NCBI GenBank assembly: GCA_963705695.1
Contig: CAVPKN010000026.1
Span: 16,138 to 80,137, forward strand
Length of the DNA: 64,000 nucleotides
Reading direction: 5' to 3'
Source of the DNA: an uncultured Chlamydiales bacterium
Lineage (GTDB): Bacteria > Chlamydiota > Chlamydiia > Chlamydiales > JAAKFR01
Each line of letters begins with the position of its first letter. The first letter of the stretch is position 1. Below, piece by piece: positions 1 to 3,000 of this stretch. A program made the position numbers.

Positions 1-3000
1 GTACTGCCCGTTAAAATTGAAAGTTTCATATGGTTTATATGGTTGCGCCATTGAACCCCTCTTAATTTTGTTTGTTTGAATTTTTAAATTTTTCTGGCAT
101 CGCCGTATAAATGCTGTCTCTTATAGATGGCCATTTTGTCAGCAGGATTTTCCGAGTTGGTTCGCAGGTTCCCTTCTATAAAATCCGGACACGCGTGGAG
201 CTTGTACTCCGCAAACGAGTTCGAATAATTCCGCTCCTTGATCTGGATTGATCGCTCCTTGATAGACAAGGGAATTGAGTTTGCCAGTGGAATATATCTT
301 TTAAGATCATCAAACGTACCCTTTGTGAACAAAAGGTTTAGTTCATCTCTTAGTCGCCCATGCTGGAGATTAAGGCGATCGACTGGTCGGTTCAATACAT
401 AAATACACACACCGAAGATAATTGAAGCCGTTAAACCTACCCCTACAGGAATAGGAATAAATACTGCGTTACTCAGGTCTACGGGCGAAGTTTACAAGGC
501 AAGCTATAATTCCAGCGATCGCAGCCGAAACCACACGAGCTATTGCTACACTGTAACCTCCTTGCCTATTTCCCCTTTAGGGCTCTTGCTTCTCCATTGA
601 TCTCCTTTATCCACTTCGTTTTCTCCGATTGAATGTAGGTAATGAGCACCAAACTTAAAATTCTGATGATTAATAACGCGCGGGCCAAACATAAAAACCT
701 CCCTCAATTTTGTTAAGTTATATATAAATCTTATAAAGCTAATATAAATAAAACATAAACAATTAATTAAACTAACTTAGTTTTTTAAGATATTATTGCC
801 AAATAGGCGTAGAGTTGGTTTTGTTTATTCAGCGAGCTTTAGCGAGACTCCCTGGAGTGCGGCGCTAGCGCCGCCCACCTATGCCTGGGCCTGGCTTAAC
901 ATTTTGGAGCTACCTACCTGCCAAGTTACCGTCTTTGATTCTAGAAGCTTGCTAATCCTGCCTGACCCGTGGCCTACGCGCCGCCTTGATTGTCAGAAAC
1001 TTTCTGAAATCCAGCTTTTTTCAATGGCTATGATCCTGAATTTGAAAAACAAATGAATGCAGCCGCACAAATAAGAAAAAAGCGCAAAAAGTTAATGCGT
1101 TTACTTGCCAAATCATGAATGAACCGATATAGATAAAAATTGAAGTTCTCATTGCTAACCACAAAGAGATTATTGCAGAGCATGGAGGGGTCGAAGGAGT
1201 TCGAGATCTTAACTTGTTGGAATCTGCCTGCGCTTCGCCTAGGCACATGTATTACTACACAATCCGAAGCCAACAATTTGGGAACTCGCTGCCAAATATG
1301 CGTATAGCATTACATATAACCATCCATTTGTAGATGGGAAAAAGCGAATGGCTGCTCTGGCATGTGAACTTTTTTTGATGATTAATGATTATGATTTAAC
1401 AGCCTCAGATGAAGAAGCCTATTTTAATTTTATAGACTTAGCCTCGGGAGAGATCTCCGAGGAAGAACTTGTCACCTGGCTTAAACAAAATGTTTTAAAG
1501 AATCATTAATTAAACCTCGGTAATATGGGTCCTACCAGATTTTGATTCGATAACAACGATGGAAATTTTTTTTAAAAAAAAAGTCCCTTCTCTACTATTA
1601 TCGTTGTTATCGGTGTATCGTTCTTATCTTTTTGGCATGAAGAGTATACGTTGAGTGACCAGTTACTGTTCTGCACCTACCGCGTTGACTGCGAAAGTCG
1701 CGATTTAAAATATTTCCCAATAAAATGCTAATGAAGCGCAAGGGTGATTTTAAGAGCTTTTTCAACTTCGTTCATTTCTTCTAGCGAGATTGAAAGAATT
1801 TTAGGTCCTAATCTTATTTTATCAATGCCTTGAATCTGATCCAACATCACTTTATTCATGCCTCGAGGCATTTTAATTTTTGTTTCAAAGGGGTAAATTT
1901 TTTCTATCGAACTTGTTATAGGTGCAACGATAACACGTTGTGAGTGTTGATTTGCTAAATTATTAGAAAGAATAAGAGCTGGGCGTGTTTTATTGACTTC
2001 AGAGCCAATCGTTGGATCTAAAGAAACCCAATATATCTCACCCCGCTTTGGTTGTTTATTCATCCCAATGTTCGATGTCTAAAGAAGACCACTCCTCAAT
2101 TTCTTTAATTCGCTCTTTATCAGTAGCGGCTTCTTTATAAGCCTCTTTCGAGTTCTTTTTTTTTAATTTCCAAAGCTAAGCGTATGGCCTCAGCAACAAA
2201 ACGACTGCGCTGTCTTTGCTCAACAAAGGTGTTAAGTTCATCAAGAACTTCTTCTGGAAGAGTATATGTTGCTTTATGTGTATTCATTTTAACATAAATA
2301 CCGTAGTATGGTGTATGTAGGCAATAGTCCATTTTTTTTGGCACCCAGCCAGCAGCTTGGAACAAGCGGGAAGCTATCTAGCGTGTGAACTTTTTTTTGA
2401 TGATTAATGATTATGAACCTATCCCGATAATCAGCGCGAGATGATCCCTAAGATCTTGTCGCGCTGATTATGGGGATAGGTTCATGATTTAACATGGATT
2501 TCCATGTGTTTATTTTAAAGATTCAAGATAAAGATGTGATTCTCTTTTCTTTAAGGAATTTATAGATTCGGAATATAATTATAATAAAATATTTATTTTA
2601 AATTGGGGCTGTGGTAAAATGTTTGAGTTTAACCTACTTAAGGGGTTCTTATGCTTCGAGTCCGAAAAATTTATTAATAATCATGCGGCACAAACCGCAG
2701 CAGCTCAGATCGCGGCAGCGGCTACAGCTGTAGAGGAAAAGAAAGGGAGGCAGGAGATTCAAATCGATGCCTTATTGCTTGCTTATCAAAGCATTTACGA
2801 AGCTGTCCAACTTACCCACCAAGCGGCTCAAACAGAAGCAAAAGGGATGACAACGAATGCTTCTGCTCAAAATCGCTTGATCGATTGGGAGGCGGGGCTC
2901 CATTTCAAGAAGTCGGAGCCACGAGATCAATTATTTGCGGTGGAAACAATTGAAACAAACACCAAGAAATCAATGAGATTAATCCTGACGGTAGTGGTGG

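What the first reader, a model, noticed from the sequence alone, without database searches (positions are those of the whole stretch)
2415..2483. MITE-like palindromic element family (GAACCTAT...ATAGGTTC) with a paired filled and empty site
At least five copies occur: 2415..2483 (69 bp), 15487..15573 (87 bp, degenerate), 24852..24890 (solo arm), 33275..33435 (161 bp, long form) and 41569..41634 (66 bp derivative). All begin with gaacct(a/t)t and end with ataggttc, have long inverted arms, and encode no protein. The copy at 2415 interrupts a Doc-like remnant exactly where the other doc copy is continuous (gattatgatttaac at 1387-1400). Removing the 69 bp and one AT restores that sequence. This is direct evidence of insertion, with a possible AT or TA target duplication. 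Two length and sequence subfamilies share only the termini, as expected for non-autonomous elements mobilised by one transposase. No matching autonomous element is visible in the window.
Basis: seen in the sequence. Interest (0 to 1): 0.7.

Follow-up and report, generated by a model that had tools for sequence, protein, structure and literature searches.

The report
Small IS5-derived palindromic mobile elements
These are five copies of a small non-coding mobile DNA element (a MITE) whose ends match those of a roughly 0.9-kb IS5-family insertion sequence found in chlamydia-related bacteria and cyanobacteria; they are real and show clean insertion footprints, but they are an ordinary kind of bacterial repeat.

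Summary
Five elements bounded by GAACCTAT(C)...(G)ATAGGTTC lie at the stated coordinates. Three are strong full-length hairpins, one is degenerate and one is a solo arm.

Insertion is shown twice:
- The copy at 2415 splits a Fic/Doc remnant exactly where the paralogous copy is continuous.
- The copy at 41569 is absent from the same position in a relative whose neighbouring gene is 94% identical.

In both cases, removing the element and one AT restores the sequence.

The missing autonomous partner was found outside the window. Insertion sequences of 877-943 bp carry the same 17-20 bp terminal inverted repeats and two overlapping ORFs that encode an IS5-family DDE transposase. They occur in metagenomes, in Nostoc, Scytonema and Stanieria plasmids, and in Neochlamydia, Protochlamydia and Simkania plasmids.

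- The arms of the 2415 copy match the Neochlamydia/Protochlamydia IS ends 17 of 17.
- Eight of ten IS copies found through their protein have identical 2-bp flanks (AA, GT, TC, TT, AT), so the 2-bp target duplication is real.
- The target consensus is Y-AT-R.

The window holds two MITE subfamilies whose inner repeat sequences differ, so two related transposases may be involved. No transposase of this kind lies in the window.

Verdict: a new member of a known kind, of low to moderate interest.

The parts
2415..2483 (.). MITE copy A1, 69 bp. It is a near-perfect hairpin with terminal inverted repeat GAACCTATCCCGATAAT. It is flanked by AT (2413-2414) and AT (2484-2485), and it is inserted into a Fic/Doc remnant.
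   Evidence: Sequence; fold -32.8 kcal/mol, z = -12. Excision restores the paralogous Doc sequence. The arms match the Neochlamydia and Protochlamydia IS ends 17/17.
15487..15573 (.). MITE copy A2, 87 bp, a degenerate member of the same subfamily (GAACCTTTTCTGATAATCC ... GGATTATCGGAATAGGTTC). The flanks CT/TT no longer match. It lies between CorA and an outer-membrane-protein gene.
   Evidence: Sequence. Right arm 17/18 identical to the arm of copy A1. Weak fold, z = -3.15.
24852..24890 (+). Solo left arm of subfamily B, truncated after about 39 bp. It abuts the first ATG of the minus-strand ORF 23733-24851.
   Evidence: 41/41 identical to 33271-33311. No hairpin of its own, z = 0.
33275..33435 (.). 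MITE copy B, the 161-bp long form. The terminal repeat is GAACCTATCTCACTATT, flanked by AT/AT. It abuts the first ATG of the minus-strand ORF 32255-33274.
   Evidence: Fold -44.8 kcal/mol, z = -12.9. It is 70-80% identical over its full length to elements of about 162 bp in Chlamydiae genome bins L001 and L017 and in metagenome contigs L120, L139 and L143.
41569..41634 (.). MITE copy B-short, 66 bp. It is an internal-deletion derivative of the long form in the opposite orientation, flanked by AT/AT. It sits directly after the stop codon of a SpoU/TrmH methyltransferase gene.
   Evidence: Alignment to the reverse complement of 33275-33435. The orthologous site in L161 lacks it; excising the element plus AT restores continuity and raises the score from 165 to 179.
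1387..1400 (+). Paralogous empty site in Doc copy 1 (gattATgatttaac). The target AT is at 1391-1392.
2358..2414 (+). Left part of the second Doc remnant. It continues at 2484-2493 after the element.
   Evidence: Local alignment to 1337-1402 after excision.

Best explanation
[quoted passage not shown] They are non-autonomous derivatives of a lineage of IS5-family insertion sequences: short (about 0.9 kb), with two overlapping ORFs, resembling the IS427 group.

Proposed mechanism:
- The cognate DDE transposase binds the 17-20 bp terminal inverted repeat. The first nine bases, GAACCTATC, are conserved across the whole lineage. Bases 10-17 are specific to each sub-lineage.
- The transposase cuts at the GAACC...GGTTC boundaries.
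- It inserts the element into a Y-AT-R target with a staggered cut, which duplicates the central two bases.

The window carries two subfamilies:
- Subfamily A (2415 and 15487) has the CCGATAAT type of repeat, as in the Neochlamydia and Protochlamydia IS.
- Subfamily B (24852, 33275 and 41569) has the TCACTATT type, close to the L072-type and cyanobacterial-type IS.

What is shown:
- the structure of the elements;
- the two filled/empty site comparisons;
- the identity of the repeats to transposase-bearing IS copies;
- the 2-bp duplication and the target consensus.

What is inferred:
- A matching transposase exists, or once existed, elsewhere in this genome and moved these copies in trans.
- The short, fully palindromic forms arose by copying one IS end into a fold-back rather than by simple internal deletion.
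For: Structure and insertion:
- Searches give the structure and copy relationships.
- Searches give the two filled/empty sites, each restored by removing the element plus one AT.

The partner IS:
- a 19-nt terminus pattern retrieved ten elements of 878-943 bp and one of 1,423 bp, all bounded by the same termini. They carry two overlapping ORFs that hit NCBIfam NF033580, IS5-family transposase.
- the ORFs contain DUF4096 and DDE_Tnp_1.
- 29 of 120 metagenome loci retrieved by the terminus alone also carry this transposase.
- the transposase is 75-83% identical to copies in cyanobacterial plasmids. It is 46, 41 and 37% identical to copies in Neochlamydia, Protochlamydia and Simkania plasmids.
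- those IS copies are 877-897 bp long and end in GAACCTATCC[CGATAAT / CACTAAT / AACTAAA].

Target duplication:
- 8 of 10 IS copies have identical flanking dinucleotides of varied sequence.
- among 64 elements with matching flanks, position -1 is C or T in 47 and position +1 is A or G in 51.

Distribution:
- 10 of about 17 palindromic hits in species-representative genomes are Chlamydiae genome bins.
Against: - No transposase of this lineage lies in the 64-kb window; tblastn gives no hit better than E = 0.2. The rest of the genome could not be searched, so trans-mobilisation in this host is not shown.
- The MITE interiors beyond the 17-nt repeat do not match the subterminal sequence of any IS copy retrieved, so direct descent from a particular IS is not shown.
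- Most AT/AT counts in the collections were partly forced by the search patterns. The AT preference itself rests on the window copies and on the protein-retrieved IS copies.
- The orthologous empty site is supported by only about 13 bases downstream of the insertion point.
- Assignment to the IS427 subgroup rather than the ISL2 or IS1031 subgroups rests on my recollection of the ISfinder criteria, not on a tested phylogeny.
Confidence: 0.9

Rival explanations
1. The elements are REP or REPIN-like extragenic palindromes, spread by a RAYT (an IS200/IS605-like tyrosine transposase) or kept as structural or regulatory hairpins, and are not cut-and-paste MITEs.
For: They are full-length hairpins. 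The interiors differ between copies, yet each is self-complementary. Most copies lie between genes.
Against: - The ends lack the GTAG or CGTC tag that defines the two REP superfamilies (PMC3733652, title and abstract; sequences).
- The same ends bound transposase-bearing IS5-family elements.
- A 2-bp target duplication is present. The single-strand transposition used by RAYT and IS200/IS605 elements makes no duplication (established knowledge).
Confidence: 0.03
2. The elements are host-selected hairpins that act as transcription terminators, RNA-stability elements or translation-start cassettes. On this view their mobility is secondary or extinct.
For: - 41569 starts one base after a stop codon.
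- 24852 and 33275 abut the first ATG of the adjacent ORFs. They place the sequence GAGATAGGTTC directly upstream of that ATG, with in-frame stops TAG TGA before it.
- MITEs in other bacteria do affect the expression of neighbouring genes (PMC5896051; PMC3184786).
Against: - No terminator-like site, meaning a stem followed by a T-run, was called within any of the three copies in 24000-42000.
- There is no Rfam match.
- The Y-AT-R target includes CATG and so explains the ATG adjacency without selection.
- One copy lies in a pseudogene and one is a truncated arm, so these positions look neutral.
Confidence: 0.05
3. The elements are MITEs moved by another transposase family. The candidates are an IS630/Tc1-mariner type (TA duplication), the IS256 copy at 16355-17545, or the two Rpn/PDDEXK_2 'putative transposases' in the window.
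For: A 2-bp duplication is also typical of IS630/mariner-derived MITEs (established knowledge). IS256 and Rpn genes are present in the window.
Against: - The flanking duplication is AT or other dinucleotides, never specifically TA.
- Every full-length element with these ends carries an IS5-family transposase.
- No GAACCTAT terminus flanks the IS256 or Rpn genes.
Confidence: 0.02

Closest known systems
IS5-family insertion sequences of the short two-ORF type (IS427-like group), and MITEs derived from IS5-family elements
   Same: - DDE_Tnp_1 transposase with a DUF4096 N-terminal part, encoded by two overlapping ORFs.
- Length of about 0.88-0.9 kb.
- Terminal inverted repeats of 17-20 bp that start with GA.
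- A very short (2-bp) target duplication inside a short palindromic target.
   Different: - The duplicated dinucleotide is the centre of Y-AT-R. Better-known IS5-family members duplicate the TA of Y-TA-R (recalled, not tested).
- I could not check whether ISfinder already names this lineage.
- The derived MITEs are unusually complete hairpins.
IS5-family IS elements of amoeba symbionts (ISCaa2, ISCaa3, ISCaa8 and ISCaa13 of Amoebophilus asiaticus; PMC3196728)
   Same: - IS5-family elements of 860-916 bp with two frameshifted ORFs.
- They are shared among intracellular bacteria, including Parachlamydia, and have cyanobacterial sister groups. The lineage found here shows the same pattern.
   Different: - That paper reports no direct repeats for those IS elements and describes no MITEs.
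- Sequence identity to the present lineage was not tested, because Amoebophilus is not in the searchable collections.
Correia elements of Neisseria and RUP of Streptococcus pneumoniae
   Same: Small palindromic MITEs with long and short (internally deleted) forms and a 2-bp duplication. They often lie next to genes (PMC3184786, Table 1 and text).
   Different: Those duplicate TA, and RUP is linked to an IS630-type element. There is no sequence similarity to the present elements.
QMITE1 and QMITE2 of Coxiella burnetii (PMC5896051)
   Same: MITE families in an obligate intracellular bacterium, about 50 copies each, some overlapping gene ends.
   Different: - QMITE1 is 300-400 bp.
- QMITE2 is 150-190 bp, has 7-11 nt direct repeats and contains a GTAG REP that IS1111 targets.
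- The ends are unrelated, and the window is not Coxiella.
Nezha MITE of Anabaena and Nostoc (Zhou et al. 2008, as cited in PMC3184786 and PMC6042816)
   Same: A cyanobacterial MITE of about 130-170 bp, the same size range as the 129-bp Nostoc members of the present family.
   Different: Nezha has a 10-bp direct repeat (CATTATCTAC in the reference copy, PMC6042816) and is linked to ISNpu3. The present family has a 2-bp duplication.

Membership tests
MITE (generic definition) | Small (under about 500 bp) and non-coding | tested here: met
   39-161 bp in the window. Across 74 paired-terminus elements the size classes are 53-83, about 129 and about 162 bp.
MITE (generic definition) | Terminal inverted repeats | tested here: met
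   GAACCTATC...GATAGGTTC, with arms of 17-40 nt.
MITE (generic definition) | Target-site duplication shown by a filled versus an empty site | tested here: met
   A paralogous Doc site and an orthologous SpoU-downstream site in L161. Both are restored by removing the element plus one AT.
MITE (generic definition) | Repeats match those of an autonomous IS | tested here: met
   17/17 to the Neochlamydia S13 and Protochlamydia naegleriophila IS ends. Subfamily B matches the L072 IS ends over 16 of the first 17 nt.
MITE (generic definition) | A matching transposase in the same genome, and mobilisation in trans | not testable with these tools
   Only 64 kb of the genome is available. There is no hit in the window, and the genome is not in the species-representative collection.
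IS5 family, IS427-like group (partner element) | DDE transposase of the IS4/IS5 type encoded by two overlapping ORFs | tested here: met
   NF033580 covers both ORFs. Pfam finds DUF4096 and DDE_Tnp_1. ORF B lies in the +1 frame relative to ORF A.
   877-943 bp. 2-bp duplication in 8 of 10 IS copies.
IS5 family, IS427-like group (partner element) | Phylogenetic placement within the IS427 group rather than the ISL2 or IS1031 groups | not tested
   No ISfinder reference set was available. The subgroup label is provisional.
REP / REPIN with RAYT | GTAG or CGTC tetranucleotide at one end of the palindrome | tested here: not met
   The ends read GAAC/GTTC. The criterion is from PMC3733652.
Integron attC site | RYYYAAC ... 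GTTRRRY core sites, at the 3' end of cassette ORFs and associated with an integrase | tested here: not met
   The ends read GAACCTATC/GATAGGTTC, with CAT rather than purines after GTT. They carry a 2-bp duplication and bound transposase genes. The attC consensus is from memory.
IS630/mariner-derived MITE (Correia or RUP type) | TA target duplication | tested here: not met
   The flanks are AT, AA, TT, GT or TC.
Coxiella QMITE1 / QMITE2 | 300-400 bp with an IHF site (QMITE1), or 150-190 bp with 7-11 nt direct repeats and a GTAG REP (QMITE2) | tested here: not met
   Sizes, repeats and ends all differ.

The most novel reading that the evidence does not exclude
The family may be more than a passive IS5 derivative. 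The short forms are complete hairpins whose interiors differ between genomes yet remain self-complementary, and the Y-AT-R target lets them land precisely on start codons (CAT|...|ATG).

They could therefore be a cross-phylum, recently active agent in intracellular bacteria, with two effects:
- Replacing the 5' leader of genes, at 24851 and 33274.
- Marking the breakpoints at which single genes are shuffled between contexts. The SpoU gene occurs in at least four different neighbourhoods, and in the window its homology ends exactly at the element edge.

On this view the hairpin itself, as DNA or RNA, is under selection.
Probability: 0.1. Interest if true: 0.5.

Novelty: new member of a known kind. 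Interest (0 to 1): 0.3.

Why it matters
- It gives a clean, well-documented MITE/IS pair, with ends, a 2-bp duplication and a Y-AT-R target. No MITE had been reported for chlamydia-related bacteria in the papers I could search.
- It adds to the evidence that intracellular bacteria and cyanobacteria share a pool of IS5-family elements.
- In practice, the elements mark pseudogenes and rearrangement points. They can break assemblies, and they could serve as strain-typing markers.
- It does not change what is known about how such elements work.

Tried and rejected
- **Coxiella QMITEs.** The GC content and palindromes first suggested Coxiella. Reading PMC5896051 showed different sizes, repeats and ends.
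- **Nezha.** It was rejected because of its 10-bp direct repeat.
- **Integron attC-like sites.** I considered structure-specific recombination sites because the ends are conserved and the interiors are variable but paired. The ends do not fit the core sites, and they bound transposase genes.
- **TA duplication, or insertion without duplication.** Other placements of the element boundary were considered. The variable dinucleotides on IS copies settle it.
- **Viral contigs.** Two scans found nothing.
- **A solo arm in Nostoc C052 (H24).** It is followed by a response-regulator gene, not a transposase.
- **Orthologous empty sites around CorA.** Relatives at 76-88% protein identity (L149, L150) share only the gene itself, so no comparison was possible. 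L149 does carry its own solo terminus upstream of CorA.
- **Host identity.** The PPi-phosphofructokinase fragment gave no organism names. The best clue is CorA at 51% identity to a Chlamydiales genome bin, together with a type III secretion chaperone gene (CesT) on a related contig. The host is probably, not certainly, a member of the Chlamydiota.
- **Further degenerate copies.** One-mismatch terminus searches were not above chance.
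Full report
**1. The observation**

- The 69-bp copy at 2415-2483 reads GAACCTATCCCGATAATCAGCGCG...CGCGCTGATTATGGGGATAGGTTC. As single-stranded DNA it folds into an almost perfect hairpin (-32.8 kcal/mol, z = -12.1).
- The 161-bp copy at 33275-33435 does the same (-44.8 kcal/mol, z = -12.9).
- The 66-bp copy at 41569-41634 folds less strongly (z = -4.95). 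The 87-bp copy at 15487-15573 is degenerate (z = -3.15). The copy at 24852 is a single arm, 41/41 identical to the left end of the 33275 copy.

The bare 8-mer is only about twofold enriched (11 against 5.5 expected). The signal lies in the four inverted pairs of termini and in their hairpins.

The copies fall into two subfamilies.
- Subfamily A is 2415 and 15487, whose arms share GAACCT(A/T)T(C/T)C(C/T)GATAATC.
- Subfamily B is 24852, 33275 and 41569. The 66-bp copy is the long form in reverse orientation with about 100 bp deleted internally.

**2. Insertion footprints**

Doc copy 1 is a Fic/DOC pseudogene with the motif HPFVDGKKR (Pfam Fic 6e-10). The second remnant aligns with it up to the element. 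After removal of 2415-2483 and one AT, the alignment continues for 8 more identical bases, ATTTAACA (score 66 to 80).

A second, orthologous case was found.
- A contig from a relative (L161) has a SpoU/TrmH gene 94% identical in DNA to the window's copy. It reads GCGTAATG|TGGGGCTTTTAGG after the stop codon.
- The window reads GCTTAATG|[66-bp element + AT]|TAGGG-TTTTAGG (score 165 to 179 after excision).
- L162 and L147 agree for the first few bases.

Both cases show insertion at an AT with that AT duplicated.

**3. Wider distribution**

A scan of one genome per species with TGAACCTATC-N35-65-GATAGGTTCA gave 23 hits.
- About 17 hits are clearly palindromic. Ten of these lie in Chlamydiae genome bins (Waddlia, Parachlamydiaceae, Parachlamydiales, Simkaniaceae and others). 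The rest lie in bins labelled Gammaproteobacteria, Rickettsiales, Saccharibacteria and others.
- The interiors differ between genomes, but each element is self-complementary.
- The pattern forced T on the left flank and A on the right. A 2-bp duplication then predicts A...T outside them, and 13 of 17 show it.
- Nostoc and Scytonema plasmids carry 129-bp members of the family.
- The window's own genome is not in that collection.

**4. The autonomous partner**

- Among 74 elements with both termini, the size classes are 53-83 bp, about 129 bp and about 162 bp. There are also ten elements of 878-943 bp and one of 1,423 bp.
- The 0.9-kb elements carry two overlapping ORFs that together cover NCBIfam NF033580, IS5-family transposase. 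Pfam finds DUF4096 and DDE_Tnp_1.
- 29 of the 120 loci retrieved by the terminus alone contain this transposase.

By tblastn against plasmids, the transposase is:
- 75-83% identical in Nostoc, Scytonema and Stanieria;
- 46% in Neochlamydia sp. S13 pS13, 41% in Protochlamydia naegleriophila pPNK and 37% in Simkania negevensis pSn;
- about 35% in ordinary IS5-family elements of Deinococcus and Streptomyces.

The ends of these plasmid copies are:
- Neochlamydia and Protochlamydia: GAACCTATCCCGATAAT, identical over 17 nt to the arms of the window's 2415 copy;
- Simkania: GAATCTATCCAACTAAA, the type seen in a short element of the Chlamydiae bin L001;
- cyanobacteria: GAACCTATCCCACTAAT;
- metagenome IS L072: GAACCTATCTCACTAAT, one base from the subfamily B repeat.

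**5. Target duplication and target site**

The ten IS copies retrieved through their protein are unbiased with respect to flanks. Eight of them have identical dinucleotides on both sides: AA, GT, TC, TT, TT, AA, TT and AT. The element is therefore GAACC...GGTTC, and the 2 bp is a true duplication, not part of the repeat.

Across 64 elements with matching flanks, position -1 is a pyrimidine in 47 and position +1 is a purine in 51. The target is therefore Y-AT-R.

This target explains why several copies sit on CAT or ATG. It includes the first ATG of the ORFs at 24851 and 33274, without any need for selection.

**6. What is not in the window**

- No homolog of the transposase is present (best tblastn E = 0.2).
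- The IS256 transposase (16355-17545) and the two Rpn/PDDEXK_2 genes are not flanked by these termini.
- The elements are not called as terminators, match no Rfam family and are not near tRNA genes.

**7. Mechanism**

Shown:
- the structure of the elements;
- two insertion footprints;
- repeat identity to transposase-bearing IS5-family elements;
- the 2-bp duplication within Y-AT-R.

Inferred:
- A cognate transposase encoded elsewhere in the genome, or formerly present, moved these copies in trans.
- The two subfamilies have different inner repeat sequences that correspond to distinguishable IS lineages, so two related transposases may be involved.
- The arms of the short forms are complementary well beyond the 17-nt repeat, whereas the left and right subterminal regions of the IS are not. 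The short forms therefore probably arose as fold-backs of one IS end rather than by simple internal deletion.

**8. Comparison with known elements**

- The partner fits the IS5 family of the short two-ORF type. The IS427-group label rests on my recollection of the ISfinder criteria (0.8-1 kb, 2-4 bp duplication, frameshifted ORFs) and was not tested phylogenetically.
- IS5-family elements of 860-916 bp, shared among intracellular bacteria and with cyanobacterial sister groups, were described for the amoeba symbiont Amoebophilus (PMC3196728). No MITEs and no direct repeats were reported there.
- Coxiella QMITE1 and QMITE2 (PMC5896051), Nezha (10-bp repeat; PMC6042816) and the Correia and RUP elements (TA duplication) are different families.
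- I found no paper describing MITEs in chlamydia-related bacteria, and a large MITE census does not mention them. Those searches cover open-access text only.

**9. Host**

The host is probably a chlamydia-related intracellular bacterium, but this is not certain.
- CorA is 51% identical to a Chlamydiales genome bin, which is the best named hit.
- A related contig carries a CesT type III secretion chaperone gene.
- The window's 161-bp element is 80% identical to one in a Chlamydiae bin.
- The Rpn genes are 63-68% identical to those on Rickettsia, Megaira and Cardinium plasmids.
- Many genes in the window are broken.

**10. Verdict**

This is a real, well-supported MITE family with an identified IS5-family partner. 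It is a new member of a known kind. Interest is low to moderate.

Noticed in passing
window 14193-14215: Two termini abut head to head: ATAGGTTC-CA-GAACCTAC, directly after the stop of ORF 12970-14199 and upstream of CorA. A relative (L149, about 9880-9900) has a solo right terminus, TGCGGATAGGTTCAT, at a similar place upstream of CorA. It could be a remnant, a junction of two ends or chance.
   Followed up: partly
window 24849-24851 and 33272-33274: The first ATG of the minus-strand ORFs 23733-24851 (CPT-like kinase domain, with an unusual 170-aa N-terminal extension) and 32255-33274 lies exactly at the element boundary. In-frame TAG TGA stops lie inside the element. The Y-AT-R target can explain this. 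Whether these ATGs are the true starts was not tested.
   Followed up: partly
window 40742-41569; loci L147, L148, L161, L162: The SpoU/TrmH methyltransferase gene is 91-94% identical in DNA to copies on four other contigs, but its neighbours differ in each. Homology with the window stops at the gene ends. The window copy also appears N-terminally shortened (203 aa against 270 aa). This suggests single-gene shuffling in these genomes.
   Followed up: partly
window 25840-29790, 51320-56743, 57967-62943: Three very large paralogous ORFs (1,316-1,807 aa) are 70-85% identical in DNA over long stretches. They carry arrays of a 126-nt (42-aa) tandem repeat; twelve copies lie at 61231-62916.
   Followed up: no
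window 50384-51259 and 62967-63872: Two Rpn / PD-(D/E)XK 'putative transposase' genes. The first is 63-68% identical in protein to copies on Rickettsia, Candidatus Megaira and Cardinium plasmids, part of a gene pool shared by intracellular bacteria.
   Followed up: partly
window 1120-2500: A toxin-antitoxin graveyard. It holds a Fic/Doc pseudogene with upstream stop codons, an apparently intact MazF/PemK toxin (1728-2063) with a small upstream ORF (2135-2365), and then a second Doc fragment of only about 65 bp.
   Followed up: partly
window 3354-3785 and 8739-10179: Broken housekeeping genes: a C-terminal fragment of PPi-dependent phosphofructokinase, and a DauA/SulP transporter split into two ORFs. 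Both are signs of genome decay.
   Followed up: no
window 38317-39146 and 41818-42653: A duplication of about 830 bp at 83-92% identity, containing paralogous ORFs of unknown function (38309-39052 and 41789-42559). It brackets the metallo-beta-lactamase-fold and SpoU genes and the 41569 element.
   Followed up: no
window 18297-23684: A tandem array of four or five paralogous PhyH / 2-oxoglutarate dioxygenase-like genes. A 44-nt motif recurs within it every 1.4 kb or so.
   Followed up: no
L072 493-1919: One IS copy is 1,423 bp instead of about 890 bp. It carries an extra 125-aa ORF (595-972) between the left end and the transposase, which may be a passenger gene or a nested insertion.
   Followed up: no
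window 16355-17545: An intact-looking IS256-family transposase gene (NCBIfam NF033543, 6e-108), about 800 bp from the degenerate MITE copy. It is unrelated to the MITE termini.
   Followed up: partly
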